Shown: piece after piece, positions 44,501 to 56,500 of the stretch | How the letters are laid out: every line of letters starts with the position of its first letter | How positions within the stretch are numbered: the first letter of the stretch is position 1 | Assembly (NCBI GenBank): GCA_964252035.1 | Contig: OZ176200.1 | Origin: Podarcis erhardii | Taxonomy: Eukaryota | Direction: 5' to 3' (one strand) | Length of the DNA: 64,000 bases | Made by a program: the position numbers

Positions 44501-47500
44501 AGCAGTGTAGAGTAAAACACAGTTACATAAATTCAATAAACATTGAAAATATCAGCCCCAAACTTGCAAAAAACAAACAAACAAAGTCAGATAAAGCAGG
44601 ATTAACAAAATGATTTAAATGTAAATATAAAAAGTAAGTAAAAAGGTTTCTACTCCTCCTCAAACTATACAGCAGAGCACCAAAGTAGACTCCCCTGTGG
44701 AGAGTGGTGCACAATCATGATGTAGGTATAAGGAAGGATGTATGTTGAGCATATGTACAATCAATCCAATATGTGAATGAAAACATTGCTTCAGCTGCTT
44801 TTCAAATTCATTAAGAGAAACTCACCAGGAGAAAACAAGCCCTTACTAAATCCGGGCACACGGCAGAAACATGGAGTTGTTCTGCTCAAAGTGACTGTTG
44901 TAGTTCCTGTTGTAGAAGGTATGGAAGTACTTGTTGCTGCTGAAGACACAATAGAAAAGAAATAAATGTATAGCAGTTGTTACGTACTGCTTGAAGACAT
45001 ACTGCTGGAAATGGATGCTGAACACTGTAGATACTTAAGACTTCAGTGTACACTTCCAAAGCACCAACTGAAGCATAACAATTCAGAATTCCAACTGAAC
45101 TCAGCCGGACTTACATGTATCTTTAGGGTTGGAGAATTTAACTTGATAATTGTACTACAAAAACCAGTTAATTGTTTAATGGATCAGATCAATACTTTGC
45201 TTACTTGCTGTTCTTATTATACACCTACCATGCTATCAAGAAACAGGGGAATCCAGCTATATTCCTCCCAGTATCAAGAAACACACCCCTCCAGTCCAAA
45301 GGTGCTGTTAAGAAAATTCCAAATATCTAGCCAGAGAGCTATCTACTACTTGAAATAGCACTGAAAACTTATTTGAAAAATGCACACTGAGATCTAGGCA
45401 AACATTTTTGATAAGTTGCTAGCTGATAGACACTAGGTTTCATAAATGGGATACCAATTTTTGAAAAGGGTGGTATATGAAATAAGATCACCAAACCCCA
45501 ATTAATATGAAACAATTTGCTAACATTTGGCATGACACCTGTAATTGAGTAACATGTAATAAATTTAACTGTTGGAATATTTACCAAAGGTAACAAGATT
45601 TTCATACCAGGATATGCAGATTCATTCTGTAATTACCTGTTGTAACAACAACCAAAGGCTTAGTGGAAAATGGCACTCTGGTAGGGACAGTTGCTGTTTC
45701 TACAGTAATCCCAGTAGTGGATATCGTCGACACAGGTTTGGAAACATGGGTAGATGGAAGAGATGTGGTTGAAACGGTGGAAGCCACTCCAGAAGTGATG
45801 AAAGGTGTGCTGACGGAGCCAGGGGTTGAGAGAGGGGTGGTGGTCATGGGCTTTCCTGTTGTAATTCCAGGAGTGGTGGAAACAAGGGTGGTGCTTTGGG
45901 TGGTAGTGACTACAATGGGTGGTGGTGTAGAAGCTGTGGAGGATGCTGGAGTTGTGCTCTTGCCAGCAGTGCTGCCTGGTGTTTCTGTGGTCGTTGGCTT
46001 TCCTGTGGTTACTCCTGGAGTTGTGGAAACAAGAGTGGAGCTTTGGGTGGTGGTAAATACAATGGGAGGTGGCGTAGACCCCGTGGAGGATGCTGGAGTT
46101 GTGCTTTTGCCTGCCGTGCTGCCAGGTTTTTCTGTGGTAGAAGCAGCAGATGTGCTCAGTGGTGTTGTGCTAGGATGGCAGGGCTTGTATTCACAGCACT
46201 GGTATCTAACCTGGAAGTTATAACACATCTTGTCTGTTTGCTTTGAATTTTCACACAAAAGTCCAACATGGAGGTTACATTGCACTTCCTGACCAAGCAG
46301 ATGCAGGCTGACATCAGGGTGATTCTCAGCTCTGCATTCAATGTCTTGTGGATGTTTGCAAATATTTCCTCCAGCTTTTCGGATGGTCTCAAAATTCTCA
46401 ATATCGCCATCATCTGGACTGCTGGTAGGACGGTGCAAATCATACCAGGAGGTCCAGTTACACTTTGGGAGGCACACAGTAGAGGTACTTTCTAGCGTAG
46501 TGGTAACAAGGGGAGCCAGGGTGGTTGTTGTGGTCAGCAGGCCTGGAGGGGTTTGTGCAGTGGTCCCGGTGGTGGGTATTGTTGAGGAAGGCTTGGAAAC
46601 AGGAGTGGACTGGAGTGTTGTGGCTGTCACAGTGGGGACCACTCCAGTGGAGACGGCAGCGGTGCTGACTGAGGCTGGTGTTGTGAGAGGGAGGGTGGAA
46701 AGCGGCGTTGAGTGGGTGGTGGTGGTTGGCTTTCTTGTTGTAACTCCTGGAGTTGTCGGAAGAAGGGTGGTGCTTTCGGTGGTGGTGAATACAACGGGAG
46801 GTGGCGTAGAGCCCGTGGAGGATGCTGGAGCCGTGCTCTTGCCTGCCGTGCTGCCTGGTGTTTCTGAGGTTGTTGGCTTTCCTGTGGTTACTCCTGGTGT
46901 TGTGGAAACAAGGGTGGTGCTTTCGGTGGTGGTATGGACAACAGGAGGTGGCGTAGAGCCCGTGGAGGATGCTGGAGCCGTGCTCTTGCCCACCGTGCTA
47001 CCTGGGGCTTCTGCGGTGGTGGCACTTGTTGTGACCAGTGGCGCTGGCGTGGTTTCACAGTGCTTGTAGTCGCAACACAGTGCTCTCATCTCATAATCGT
47101 AACACATCTTGTACTTCCCCATCTGTTTGGCATTCTCACAAAGGAGTCCAGTGTTGATATCGCAGATCATGTTCTGTCCAAGTTCAGATGCGCTCAGCTC
47201 TGGGTAGTCCACTCCTCTGCACTCCACCTTTTGAGGGTGCTCGCAGATGGTACCCCCCGATGCCTGGATGCTCTTAATGTCCTCTCGATCGCCATCCCCA
47301 GGGTCGGAGCTTGGAGTGTGAAAACTGAACCAAGAGGTCCACTGGCATTTGGGTTGGCAACCGGTAGTGGTGCTTCCTGGCGTAGTGGTAACAAGGGGAG
47401 CCAGGGTGGTTGTTGTGGTCAGCAGGCCTGGAGGGGTTTGTGCAGTGGTCCCGGTGGTGGGTATTGTTGAGGAAGGCTTGGAAACAGGAGTGGACTGGAG

Positions 47501-53500: not shown

Positions 53501-56500
53501 TGTGGTGGTGGCACTTGTTGTGACCAGTGGCGCTGGCGTGGTTTCACAGTGCTTGTAGTCGCAACACAGTGCTCTCATCTCATAATCGTAACACATCTTG
53601 TACTTCCCCATCTGTTTGGCATTCTCACAAAGGAGTCCAGTGTTGATATCGCAGATCATGTTCTGTCCAAGTTCAGATGCGCTCAGCTCTGGGTAGTCCA
53701 CTCCTCTGCACTCCACCTTTTGAGGGTGCTCGCAGATGGTACCCCCCGATGCCTGGATGCTCTTAATGTCCTCTCGATCGCCATCCCCAGGGTCGGAGCT
53801 TGGAGTGTGAAAACTGAACCAAGAGGTCCACTGGCATTTGGGTTGGCAACCGGTAGTGGTGCTTCCTGGCGTAGTGGTAACAAGGGGAGCCAGGGTGGTT
53901 GTTGTGGTCAGCAGGCCTGGAGGGGTTTGTGCAGTGGTCCCGGTGGTGGGTATTGTTGAGGAAGGCTTGGAAACAGGAGTGGACTGGAGTGTTGTGGCTG
54001 TCACAGTGGGGACCACTCCAGTGGAGACGGCAGCGGTGCTGACTGAGGCTGGTGTTGTGAGAGGGAGGGTGGAAAGCGGCGTTGAGTGGGTGGTGGTGGT
54101 TGGCTTTCTTGTTGTAACTCCTGGAGTTGTCGGAAGAAGGGTGGTGCTTTCGGTGGTGGTGAATACAACGGGAGGTGGCGTAGAGCCCGTGGAGGATGCT
54201 GGAGCCGTGCTCTTGCCTGCCGTGCTGCCTGGTGTTTCTGGGGTTGTTGGCTTTCCTGTGGTTACTCCTGGTGTTGTGGAAACAAGGGTGGTGCTTTCGG
54301 TGGTGGTATGGACAACAGGAGGTGGCATAGAGCCCGTGGAGGATGCTGGAGCCGTGCTCTTGCCCACCGTGCTACCTGGGGCTTCTGTGGTGGTGGCACT
54401 TGTTGTGACCAGTGGCGCTGGCGTGGTTTCACAGTGCTTGTAGTCGCAACACAGTGCTCTCATCTCATAATCGTAACACATCTTGTACTTCCCCATCTGT
54501 TTGGCATTCTCACAAAGGAGTCCAGTGTTGATATCGCAGATCATGTTCTGTCCAAGTTCAGATGCGCTCAGCTCTGGGTAGTCCACTCCTCTGCACTCCA
54601 CCTTTTGAGGGTGCTCGCAGATGGTACCCCCCGATGCCTGGATGCTCTTAATGTCCTCTCGATCGCCATCCCCAGGGTCGGAGCTTGGAGTGTGAAAACT
54701 GAACCAAGAGGTCCACTGGCATTTGGGTTGGCAACCGGTAGTGGTGCTTCCTGGCGTAGTGGTAACAAGGGGAGCCAGGGTGGTTGTTGTGGTCAGCAGG
54801 CCTGGAGGGGTTTGTGCAGTGGTCCCGGTGGTGGGTATTGTTGAGGAAGGCTTGGAAGCAGGAGTGGACTGGAGTGTTGTGGCTGTCACAGTGGGGACCA
54901 CTCCAGTGGAGACGGCAGCGGTGCTGACTGAGGCTGGTGTTGTGAGAGGGAGGGTGGAAAGCGGCGTTGAGTGGGTGGTGGTGGTTGGCTTTCTTGTTGT
55001 AACTCCTGGAGTTGTCGGAAGAAGGGTGGTGCTTTCGGTGGTGGTGAATACAACGGGAGGTGGCGTAGAGCCCGTGGAGGATGCTGGAGCCGTGCTCTTG
55101 CCTGCCGTGCTGCCTGGTGTTTCTGGGGTTGTTGGCTTTCCTGTGGTTACTCCTGGTGTTGTGGAAACAAGGGTGGTGCTTTCGGTGGTGGTATGGACAA
55201 CAGGAGGTGGCGTAGAGCCCGTGGAGGATGCTGGAGCCGTGCTCTTGCCCACCGTGCTACCTGGGGCTTCTGCGGTGGTGGCACTTGTTGTGACCAGTGG
55301 CGCTGGCGTGGTTTCACAGTGCTTGTAGTCGCAACACAGTGCTCTCATCTCATAATCGTAACACATCTTGTACTTCCCCATCTGTTTGGCATTCTCACAA
55401 AGGAGTCCAGTGTTGATATCGCAGATCATGTTCTGTCCAAGTTCAGATGCGCTCAGCTCTGGGTAGTCCACTCCTCTGCACTCCACCTTTTGAGGGTGCT
55501 CGCAGATGGTACCCCCCGATGCCTGGATGCTCTTAATGTCCTCTCGATCGCCATCCCCAGGGTCGGAGCTTGGAGTGTGAAAACTGAACCAAGGGGTCCA
55601 CTGGCATTTGGGTTGGCAACCGGTAGTGGTGCTTCCTGCCGTAGTGGTAACAAGGGGTGTCAGAGTGGTTGTTATGCCACCTGTCACTTTAGATGTTGTT
55701 CTGGATCCTGCTGTTGTTATTTCTGGTGTTGCTGGAGTTGTTGATGCACCACATGGCGTGTATAGGCAGCATAGGAACCTGATTTCAAAATTCAGGCAGA
55801 TTGGTGGTGTCTGATCCTTATTGTTGCATATCAAACCGTTAGACTTGGAACATTGTACCTTTTGTCCGAGGGTTTCTATGCTCTCATTAGGAAAGCGCTG
55901 AGCTCTGCATTCCACTTCATCTGGCATTTTACATACTTTGTTTCCTCTATCTCTTATTTTCTCTGGTGTTTCATAATCCCCATTGTCTCGTCCAAATTTA
56001 GGGTAGCTGACATCATACCATTCTGTCCATTCACATGTTCTATGGACACATACTGTTGTTTGTGCTGTAGTGGATTCTGAAAGAAACAACATCACTGGTT
56101 ATTTTAATCCGGTTCATTTAGATCATAAATCTCCCTATCTGTTATCTGCCTCCTCTCTCCTTTCCCATGTAACCTCTCTCCCAAGTTTTTTCTGTAGATG
56201 AGGCAGGGATTGGGGGGCGGGCGGGGGACCAGAAGAGCACATTGTTGGAAGTGGATCATTCCATCTGGGGAGCTGCCATGCTTGAGCCGATTGAACCTTC
56301 AACTTAACTTTATGTTGATTTCCATCTTGTATATGTTTATTTTAAAATAATATATGCAACATGTAACAAAAATATGAATATGATGTATTTGGGGATGTTT
56401 TCCTATGTTATAGAAGATTTGTAAAGTTTTTCATTATCTCTTCATTTTCTTACATACTTTGTTTATAAATGCTTGCTTTTGATCATGTCGCATTTACATC

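What the first reader, a model, noticed from the sequence alone, without database searches (positions are those of the whole stretch)
45637..56076. Central exon built from ten almost identical CysD+PTS modules (12 CysD in total)
Seen: a unique first CysD, ten CysD copies identical in protein except one Pro/Ser, each followed by about 195 or 245 aa of PTS, and a divergent last CysD. Units differ at only a handful of nucleotides. Known: human MUC5B has 7 CysD and MUC5AC 9, with more diverged copies and longer PTS tracts. Inference: very recent expansion or strong concerted evolution producing a mucin with evenly spaced, identical cross-linking/adhesive CysD nodes about every 295 aa, predicting a fine, regular gel mesh and copy-number polymorphism among individuals.
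Basis: partly seen in the sequence, partly recalled or inferred. Interest (0 to 1): 0.65.

Follow-up and report, generated by a model that had tools for sequence, protein, structure and literature searches.

The report
Mucin exon with ten near-identical modules
This is the large central exon of a non-human airway-type (MUC5) gel-forming mucin gene in which one cysteine-knot-plus-sugar-carrying module has been copied ten times and kept almost identical, an unusually tidy but otherwise ordinary example of how mucin genes evolve.

Summary
A 10,440-nt exon lies on the minus strand at 45637-56076, with canonical AG and GT splice sites. It encodes 12 CysD domains (Pfam Mucin2_WxxW). One is a unique first copy, ten sit in tandem CysD+PTS modules, and one is a divergent last copy. 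Eight modules are 885 nt and two are 1032 nt. Pairs of modules differ at 0-5 nt (at least 99.4% identity), and the only amino-acid change within the ten CysDs is one Ser/Pro.

The gene is a MUC5-type gel-forming mucin. VWD3/C8 exons lie upstream, and VWD4/C8 and cystine-knot-like exons lie downstream. It sits tail-to-tail with TOLLIP, which is the MUC5B position. It is not human: a conserved D3 exon is about 70% identical to human MUC5B.

Unequal crossing-over or gene conversion best explains the homogeneity. Synonymous sites are homogenised too, the edge copies are only 46-62% identical, the variant pattern is mosaic, and the two long modules carry a hybrid 49-aa sub-repeat.

The regular-mesh prediction is untested. 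Neither the exact copy number nor relatives could be checked. I rate it a new member of a known kind, of modest interest.

The parts
45637..56076 (-). Central (PTS/CysD) exon of a MUC5-type gel-forming mucin; 10,440 nt; 12 CysD
   Evidence: Open frame. Acceptor ...TTTCTTTCAG| before 56076 and donor |GTAAT after 45637. GC 0.54-0.57.
55751..56050 (-). First, unique CysD (aa 17-116 of P0001)
   Evidence: Pfam PF13330 (protein 1). 34% aa identity to the array CysD. All 10 Cys and WxxW are kept.
55619..55750 (-). Short first PTS linker (44 aa). Its last ~55 nt already match the unit ends.
   Evidence: Mismatches to the unit tail occur only at offsets 21, 40, 42 and 46, and homology is lost from offset 56.
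46495..55673 (-). Homogenised array, about 9.18 kb, ten CysD+PTS units at 99.4% identity or more
   Evidence: Boundaries. Pairwise differences. Spacing 885/1032 nt.
54734..55618 (-). Unit U1 (885 nt). It carries the one CysD amino-acid change, Ser>Pro in WTPW.
53849..54733 (-). Unit U2 (885 nt), identical to U4
52817..53848 (-). Unit U3 (1032 nt), a long form with a third, hybrid 147-nt (49-aa) PTS sub-repeat
51932..52816 (-). Unit U4 (885 nt)
51047..51931 (-). Unit U5 (885 nt). Shares two variants with U6.
50162..51046 (-). Unit U6 (885 nt)
49277..50161 (-). Unit U7 (885 nt)
48392..49276 (-). Unit U8 (885 nt). Carries the only two synonymous differences in the array.
47360..48391 (-). Unit U9 (1032 nt), a long form. 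Its 147-nt insertion is identical to that of U3.
46475..47359 (-). Unit U10 (885 nt). Its last ~20 nt leave the array consensus.
46178..46474 (-). Last, divergent CysD
   Evidence: Pfam PF13330 E=1e-25. 62% nt and 50% aa identity to the array CysD.
45637..46177 (-). Last PTS tract, an older relative of the unit PTS (74% nt), with its own two 147-nt sub-repeats
56784..63006 (-). Upstream mucin exons (D3 assembly), lying within the open frames 62740-63006, 62575-62736, 61419-61682, 60218-60511 (VWD3), 58788-58994 (C8-3), 58264-58623, 57726-57920 and 56784-57083
   Evidence: Pfam VWD and C8. PDB matches to the D3 of MUC5B, MUC5AC and MUC2. The last three frames were assigned by eye from their Cys pattern.
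25099..43987 (-). Downstream mucin exons, lying within the open frames 43652-43987, 42638-42853, 41826-42149 and 41124-41432 (VWD4), 40287-40613, 39320-39532 (C8-4), 38542-38688, 36832-37044, 34361-34717, 33295-33450, 29592-29855, 29286-29519, 27832-27996, and 26822-26965 and 25099-25293 (cystine knot; the frame ends in a stop)
   Evidence: Pfam VWD and C8 above cut-off; Cys_knot below cut-off. The rest were assigned by eye from their Cys patterns. Exons were not joined.
1484..16462 (+). TOLLIP gene, tail-to-tail with the mucin. C2 exon in 2967-3308; CUE exon in 16184-16462; further exon-like frames at 1484-1735, 5229-5396 and within 6520-6888.
   Evidence: Pfam C2, 32.1 bits. Pfam CUE, 54.7 bits. 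PDB 1wgl Toll-interacting protein, E=4.4e-21, 40 of 46 identical by my count. The other exons were recognised from memory of TOLLIP only.

Best explanation
This is a genuine central exon of a non-human MUC5-type gel-forming mucin, sitting in the MUC5B position next to TOLLIP.

Structure. The exon encodes a long O-glycosylated PTS 'bottle-brush' interrupted by 12 small disulfide-knotted CysD domains. One internal CysD+PTS module of 885 nt has been amplified to ten tandem copies.

Mechanism. The copies are kept near-identical by repeated unequal crossing-over or gene conversion within the array, that is, concerted evolution. The two edge CysDs escape this process and have diverged. Out-of-register exchange between the two 147-nt PTS sub-repeats created a 1032-nt long form, which was then itself copied to a second place in the array.

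Function (inferred). After secretion the PTS stretches carry O-glycans. The CysDs are evenly spaced, poorly glycosylated knots roughly every 295-344 residues. They are available for weak mucin-mucin or mucin-ligand contacts, as proposed for other CysDs.

Shown here: the anatomy, the domain identity, the neighbouring gene, and the pattern of variants. Inferred: the recombination mechanism, the timing (last homogenisation about 0.7-2.8 My ago if the rate is 0.5-2e-9 per site per year), glycosylation, and any effect on the gel.
For: Anatomy:
- Exon and frame.
- Units and their differences.

CysD identity:
- Pfam PF13330 in 3 of 3 segments.
- Ten invariant Cys plus WxxW across the 4 distinct CysD sequences.
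- Sequence matches to the solved CysDs of MUC5AC, MUC5B and MUC2.
- The AF2 model has pLDDT 75.8. All 8 of its fold matches with E<=0.001 are CysD structures. The best is MUC5AC CysD7 (8ov0), with TM 0.75/0.79.

Gene identity:
- VWD and C8 exons lie on both sides.
- Cystine-knot-like exons lie at the end.
- D3 exons match MUC5B, MUC5AC and MUC2.
- TOLLIP C2 and CUE exons lie on the opposite strand, converging on the mucin.
- Lang 2016 states that Tollip lies tail-to-tail with Muc5b in most vertebrates (PMC4948705, passages).

Mechanism:
- Synonymous and PTS sites are as homogeneous as the CysD protein.
- The interior is at least 99.4% identical, against 46-74% to the edge copies.
- 2 of 6 pairs of informative sites fail the four-gamete test.
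- U2 equals U4, and U1 and U3 share a variant, which suggests a two-unit block copy.
- The long-form insertion starts like sub-repeat 2 and ends like sub-repeat 1. It is identical in U3 and U9.
- PTS composition is 48% Ser+Thr and 62% Pro+Thr+Ser.
Against: - No reads, second haplotype or related species could be examined. The copy number and the claim of ongoing exchange, as opposed to one burst, rest on one assembly.
- There are only 9-10 variable sites, so the four-gamete signal could come from recurrent mutation. One informative site is a CpG (ACG>ATG).
- Mean differences barely rise with distance between units, from 2.1 for neighbours to 3.0 at 7-9 units apart, with small n. There is no clear neighbour effect.
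- Sequence does not decide between MUC5B and MUC5AC. 2 of 4 D3 exons score higher against human MUC5B and 2 against MUC5AC.
- The Pfam cystine-knot hits are below the curated cut-off.
- 14 of the 24 flanking open frames scanned gave no Pfam family.
- Expression, glycosylation and any CysD contact are unshown.
Confidence: 0.72

Rival explanations
1. There was one recent amplification burst and nothing since. A single module was multiplied to ten copies within roughly the last one to three million years, and the few differences are later point mutations. No continuing exchange is needed.
For: Mean divergence between units is only 0.28% per site. Private variants exist in U1, U8 and U10. Differences show no clear dependence on distance between units.
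Against: Two pairs of sites show all four allele combinations. The long form with an identical hybrid insertion occurs at two non-adjacent places, U3 and U9, which needs at least a second copying step. U2=U4 and U1~U3 point to block copying. A burst built from several rounds of unequal exchange is hard to tell apart from concerted evolution.
Confidence: 0.3
2. The array is partly an assembly artefact. It is real, but the number of units, the positions of the long forms, or the near-identity were distorted by collapse, over-expansion or consensus polishing of a 9-kb repeat that is over 99% identical.
For: Repeats of this identity and length are a known weak point of assemblies. Older mucin central exons were full of gaps (PMC1552070 and PMC6269512; passages and abstract). 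Nothing in the window can verify the copy number.
Against: The 64-kb window has no N. The frame stays open through 3480 codons and the exon length is a multiple of 3. Units carry distinct private and shared variants and two length classes, rather than being uniform. Long microsatellites elsewhere in the window are resolved.
Confidence: 0.15
3. The copies are old, and strong purifying selection on the CysD protein alone keeps them identical.
For: The CysD protein is invariant in 9 of 10 copies. CysD is a conserved fold.
Against: Selection on the protein cannot keep synonymous sites and the low-complexity PTS spacer identical. Only 2 synonymous differences exist in about 9.2 kb. Most of the variable sites in the array are amino-acid changes in the PTS. 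The first and last CysDs keep the fold with only 34-50% identity.
Confidence: 0.03

Closest known systems
Human MUC5B central exon (7 CysD; rare alleles have more)
   Same: It is also a large single exon of alternating CysD and PTS, with a distinct first CysD and a set of internal CysDs described as 'nearly identical'. Homologous PTS tails repeat with the CysDs (PMC9712336, passages). It lies tail-to-tail with TOLLIP (PMC9712336 Methods; PMC4948705). Alleles that gained CysD+PTS domains by duplicating central domains are known (PMC11344006 and PMC13345508).
   Different: Here there are 12 CysD in 3480 codons. The PTS spacers are short (194 or 243 aa) and built from 49-aa sub-repeats plus a unique tail, rather than variable runs of 29-aa repeats. 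The whole module, not only the CysD, is at least 99.4% identical at the nucleotide level. A conserved D3 exon is only about 70% identical to human MUC5B (57 of 82, my count).
Human MUC5AC central exon (9 CysD; copy number varies)
   Same: Six CysDs are nearly identical and two long repeat groups differ at 4 sites (PMC9712336). CysD and PTS copy number varies between haplotypes (PMC11344006). The array CysD here matches MUC5AC CysD7 (8ov0) best among solved CysDs: 94.1 bits, TM 0.75-0.79 and 42% identity.
   Different: MUC5AC is not the neighbour of TOLLIP. Its PTS tracts are runs of 8-aa repeats of very unequal length (18-119 repeats). The modules here are uniform. Internal MUC5B CysDs are not among the solved structures matched, so the better score to MUC5AC does not decide orthology.
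Concerted evolution of mucin CYS domains (Desseyn 2009, Mol Phylogenet Evol 52:284)
   Same: The title states that CYS domains 'evolved in concert', which is the process proposed here.
   Different: I saw only the title, in reference lists. The paper itself is not in the library, so I cannot say how its examples compare in copy number or identity.
Engineered rCYSx12 and the tunicate Oikosin1 (13 CYS domains)
   Same: Both are proteins with 12-13 CysD domains. A molecule of 12 identical consecutive CYS domains lowered mucus mesh size and permeability (PMC6861317, abstract and passages).
   Different: rCYSx12 has no PTS spacers and is added to mucus rather than being part of the polymer. Oikosin1 is not a VWD-type gel-forming mucin in that description. 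Neither shows what evenly spaced CysDs inside a mucin do.

Membership tests
CysD domain (Pfam PF13330, Mucin2_WxxW) | Profile match above the curated cut-off | tested here: met
   84.7-173.7 bits against a cut-off of 22.4, in 3 of 3 segments
CysD domain (Pfam PF13330, Mucin2_WxxW) | Ten conserved cysteines (five intradomain disulfides) and a WxxW motif | tested here: met
   C8, C12, C46, C54, C73, C81, C93, C102, C103, C108, W14 and W17 are invariant in the 4 distinct CysD sequences. The frame holds 120 Cys in all. Disulfide connectivity itself is not testable here.
CysD domain (Pfam PF13330, Mucin2_WxxW) | Small beta-sandwich fold of the solved CysDs | tested here: met
   The AF2 model has pLDDT 75.8 and pTM 0.62, from a shallow 4-row alignment. 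All 8 fold matches with E<=0.001 are CysD structures, with TM 0.55-0.75 on the query. This is a prediction, not a structure.
CysD domain (Pfam PF13330, Mucin2_WxxW) | Two bound calcium ions (MUC2 CysD1; PMC7599080, passages) | not testable with these tools
   A G-D-x-E stretch is invariant. I could not map the coordinating residues, which are listed only in a figure.
Gel-forming mucin of the MUC2/MUC5 type | Three N-terminal VWD-C8-TIL assemblies | tested here: inconclusive
   Only the third (D3) lies inside the window: VWD in 62740-63006 and 60218-60511, and C8 in 58788-58994 (PDB). D1 and D2 would lie beyond base 64000.
Gel-forming mucin of the MUC2/MUC5 type | Large central exon of PTS sequence with interspersed CysD | tested here: met
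Gel-forming mucin of the MUC2/MUC5 type | Fourth VWD-C8 assembly after the PTS region | tested here: met
   VWD at 49 bits in 41826-42149 and C8 at 52 bits in 39320-39532
Gel-forming mucin of the MUC2/MUC5 type | C-terminal cystine knot | tested here: inconclusive
   Cys_knot scores 18.2 and 22.7 bits on the two last exons, each below the cut-off of 24.
MUC5B orthologue | Tail-to-tail neighbour of TOLLIP (PMC4948705) | tested here: met
   C2 and CUE exons lie on the + strand. The stop of the CUE exon is at about 16462. The last mucin coding exon, on the - strand, ends at about 25099.
MUC5B orthologue | Closer in sequence to MUC5B than to MUC5AC | tested here: inconclusive
   Human MUC5B scores higher for 2 of 4 D3 exons and MUC5AC for the other 2. 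No tree could be built because no non-human mucins were available.
Tandem array under concerted evolution | Copies within the array are far more alike than the edge copies are to them, including at silent sites | tested here: met
   At least 99.4% inside the array, against 46-74% to the edge copies. There are 2 synonymous differences in the array.
Tandem array under concerted evolution | Traces of exchange: mosaic variants and hybrid repeat junctions | tested here: met
   2 of 6 site pairs fail the four-gamete test. A hybrid 49-aa sub-repeat is present in U3 and U9. The number of sites is small.
Tandem array under concerted evolution | Copies more alike within a species than between species | not testable with these tools

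The most novel reading that the evidence does not exclude
The ten-fold, evenly spaced module is a lineage-specific amplification favoured by selection. It would give this animal a MUC5B-position mucin with 12 CysD knots at a fixed pitch. I estimate that pitch at about 50-60 nm of extended glycosylated chain, using a recalled figure of about 0.25 nm per residue. The protein would then be a natural counterpart of the engineered 12-CysD molecule that tightens mucus, producing a stiffer or finer-meshed secretion suited to some special use of mucus in that species.
Probability: 0.1. Interest if true: 0.55.

Novelty: new member of a known kind. Interest (0 to 1): 0.3.

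Why it matters
If the assembly is right, this is a clean natural example of module-level concerted evolution inside a coding exon, with traces of the mechanism still readable: a hybrid sub-repeat, block copies and mosaic variants.

It is also a mucin whose CysD spacing is uniform. That could be useful as a model for asking what CysD number and spacing do to mucus.

It does not change what is known about mucin architecture. Near-identical internal CysDs and CysD copy-number variation are already described for human MUC5AC and MUC5B.

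Tried and rejected
- CysD self-association: complex prediction with two copies of the array CysD gave no verdict (score 0.00). This is neither for nor against binding.
- Rfam scan of the whole window: 0 matches.
- NCBIfam on the reverse-transcriptase fragment: only sub-threshold group II/Drt hits, which are uninformative.
- PDB search with the TOLLIP C2 exon: only weak generic C2 hits, and no TOLLIP C2 among them.
- Sub-repeat orthology between the array and the last unit: all four comparisons fall between 79% and 87%, so the order of events cannot be read from them.
- MUC5B against MUC5AC by exon scores: a 2:2 split.
- Literature searches that found nothing: mucin + CysD + 'concerted evolution' gave 0 papers. 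MUC5B + super-repeats + 528 gave 0 papers. CysD + Muc5b + reptile gave only Lang 2016.
- Of 167 open frames of 50 aa or more in 1-25400, I gave only 10 to Pfam. I added 3 further frames and the CUE frame. The rest were read by eye.
- Purifying selection alone is rejected as the cause of identity, because silent sites are homogenised too.
- A human origin is rejected: the D3 exon is about 70% identical to human MUC5B, the TOLLIP CUE exon is 40 of 46 identical, and the introns are AT-rich.

Full report
**What is there**

The window has no N. Between 46 and 56 kb the GC content jumps to 0.54-0.57, against 0.36-0.43 elsewhere. A single frame of 3498 codons is open on the minus strand from 56098 to 45602.

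A polypyrimidine tract and CAG precede 56076, and GTAAT follows 45637. The length is 10,440 nt, a multiple of three.

The CysD start motif occurs 12 times and the frame holds 120 cysteines, ten per domain. Three of three segments scanned match Pfam Mucin2_WxxW far above the cut-off. The four distinct CysD sequences keep all ten cysteines and the WxxW motif.

A model of the array CysD has pLDDT 75.8, built from a shallow alignment. It matches only CysD structures at E<=0.001: 8 of 8. The best is MUC5AC CysD7, with TM 0.75/0.79 and 42% identity. The sequence search gives the same ranking.

**The array**

Ten units follow the unique first CysD and a 44-aa linker. Their lengths are 885, 885, 1032, 885, 885, 885, 885, 885, 1032 and 885 nt. 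A second tool confirms this spacing. Each unit is a CysD of about 101 aa plus 194 or 243 aa of PTS. The PTS is 48% Ser+Thr and 62% Pro+Thr+Ser.

The PTS is built from two 49-aa sub-repeats (three in the long units) that are about 86% alike, followed by a non-repeated tail.

Over the 45 unit pairs there are 0-5 differences, with a mean of 2.4, or 0.28% per site. U2 and U4 are identical.

Sixteen alignment columns vary. Seven of them (1013-1032) are private to U10, where it leaves the array at its 3' end, and column 1012 lies at that edge. Nine lie clearly inside the array:
- Two are synonymous, and both are in U8.
- Seven change an amino acid, and only one of those (Ser>Pro in U1) is in a CysD.

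The placement of the 147-nt gap in the alignment is ambiguous, because the sub-repeats resemble each other. This can shift a count by one.

The array runs from about 55673 to about 46495.

The copies at the edges are far more distant. The last CysD is 62% identical in nt and 50% in aa, and its PTS is 74% identical. The first CysD is 46% identical in nt and 34% in aa.

**The gene and its neighbour**

I searched the flanking open frames one by one and did not join exons into a spliced model, so that step is left out.

Of 24 minus-strand frames chosen by eye and scanned:
- 5 gave a family above the curated cut-off: VWD three times and C8 twice.
- 3 gave a sensible family below the cut-off: VWD once, and Cys_knot on the last two exons.
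- 2 gave weak, irrelevant hits.
- 14 gave nothing.

Four D3 exons match the D3 assemblies of human MUC5B, MUC5AC and MUC2 in the PDB. The layout is therefore D3, then the central exon, then VWD4-C8, then Cys-rich exons, then cystine-knot-like exons. This is the MUC2/MUC5 type. The N-terminal part lies beyond the window.

TOLLIP lies on the plus strand, converging on the mucin's 3' end:
- a C2 exon at 32.1 bits;
- a CUE exon at Pfam 54.7 bits, which also matches PDB 1wgl Toll-interacting protein at E=4.4e-21, with 40 of 46 residues identical by my count;
- three more exon-like frames that I recognised only from memory of TOLLIP.

Lang et al. 2016 state that in most vertebrates Tollip lies tail-to-tail with Muc5b (PMC4948705, passages). 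The human strands agree (PMC9712336, Methods). The gene is therefore the positional counterpart of MUC5B. Sequence scores do not separate MUC5B from MUC5AC: 2 of 4 exons favour each.

The contig is not human. The best-conserved D3 exon is 57 of 82 identical to human MUC5B (my count). The introns are AT-rich, and the repeat design differs from the human genes.

A reverse-transcriptase fragment at 1-656 (Pfam RVT_1) looks CR1-like to me. That is a recollection, not a test. I do not name a taxon.

**How it most likely arose and works**

Purifying selection on the protein cannot explain the identity, because silent sites and the low-complexity spacer are homogenised too. Four things favour repeated unequal exchange within the array:
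- The contrast between the interior and the edge copies.
- Two of six informative site pairs show all four allele combinations.
- U2 equals U4, and U1 and U3 share a variant, as a two-unit block copy would give.
- The extra sub-repeat of the long units begins like sub-repeat 2 and ends like sub-repeat 1. This is the expected product of an out-of-register crossover. It is identical in U3 and U9, so the long unit was itself copied later.

With an assumed rate of 0.5-2e-9 per site per year, the mean divergence corresponds to 0.7-2.8 My. This is an inference.

The weak points are these:
- There are few variable sites.
- One informative site is a CpG.
- Differences show no clear rise with unit distance.
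- There is only one assembly.

Function is inferred from the family. PTS tracts carry O-glycans. CysDs have been proposed as non-covalent cross-links that set pore size (PMC3195396, abstract). Adding a 12-CysD protein tightened mucus (PMC6861317, abstract and passages). Recent structural work stresses that CysD functions differ and are largely unexplored (PMC11912381, passages).

**Comparison with what is known**

Human MUC2, MUC5AC and MUC5B have 2, 9 and 7 CysDs (PMC11912381 and PMC6861317, passages).

A long-read study describes six human MUC5AC CysDs as 'nearly identical', with 7 variable positions. It says the same of MUC5B CysD 2-6, and reports homologous PTS tails (PMC9712336, passages).

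CysD and PTS copy number varies among human haplotypes, and new domains arise by duplication of central ones (PMC11344006 and PMC13345508, passages). A 2009 paper is titled 'Mucin CYS domains ... evolved in concert'. I saw only that title, in reference lists.

The kind of feature is therefore known. What stands out here is the degree:
- ten copies;
- whole-module identity of at least 99.4% at the nucleotide level;
- short, uniform spacers.

I found no paper on CysD numbers in non-mammalian Muc5b beyond Lang 2006 and Lang 2016.

**What stayed unchecked**

- The copy number, since no reads were available.
- Other haplotypes and individuals.
- Related species.
- Expression, glycosylation and CysD contacts.

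**Verdict**

This is a new member of a known kind, and I score its interest at about 0.3.

Noticed in passing
window 1484-16462 (+): A TOLLIP gene lies tail-to-tail with the mucin (C2 exon within 2967-3308, CUE exon within 16184-16462). About 8.6 kb separates its stop from the mucin's last coding exon.
   Followed up: yes
window 1-656 (+): A LINE reverse-transcriptase fragment (Pfam RVT_1, E=6e-28) is still open for 189 aa. It looks CR1-like from memory, which would hint at a non-mammalian vertebrate. This was not tested.
   Followed up: partly
window 1896-2135, 20913-21135, 29100-29233: A palindromic interspersed element of about 240 nt, with arms of 85-104 nt that are 92-100% complementary, occurs in two full copies and one partial copy. 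It looks like a MITE-type hairpin repeat. One copy is in TOLLIP, one is intergenic, and one is in a mucin intron.
   Followed up: no
window 43652-43987 and 40287-40613 (-): Two exon-like frames after the central exon carry short extra PTS stretches (about 60 and about 35 residues rich in Thr/Pro/Ser) next to Cys-rich sequence. The mucin therefore has small glycosylated linkers around its fourth D assembly.
   Followed up: no
window 26009-26068 and 39900-39959; also about 11240-11340, 32700-32800, 35560 and 41500: There are long (AAT)n/(ATT)n and (CA)n microsatellites in mucin introns and in the TOLLIP gene region. All are resolved without gaps.
   Followed up: no
window 3924-3983 and 37627-37686; 9194-9326 and 40698-40830; 4813-4975: Further dispersed repeat pairs are present (75-83% alike), plus a 65-nt near-tandem duplicate 98 nt apart. 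They are probably fragments of interspersed elements.
   Followed up: no
window 45600-56100 (+): The strand opposite the mucin exon also shows open frames of 200-300 codons, rich in Gly, Cys, Trp and Arg. This is a by-product of the repeat composition, not a sign of a second gene.
   Followed up: partly
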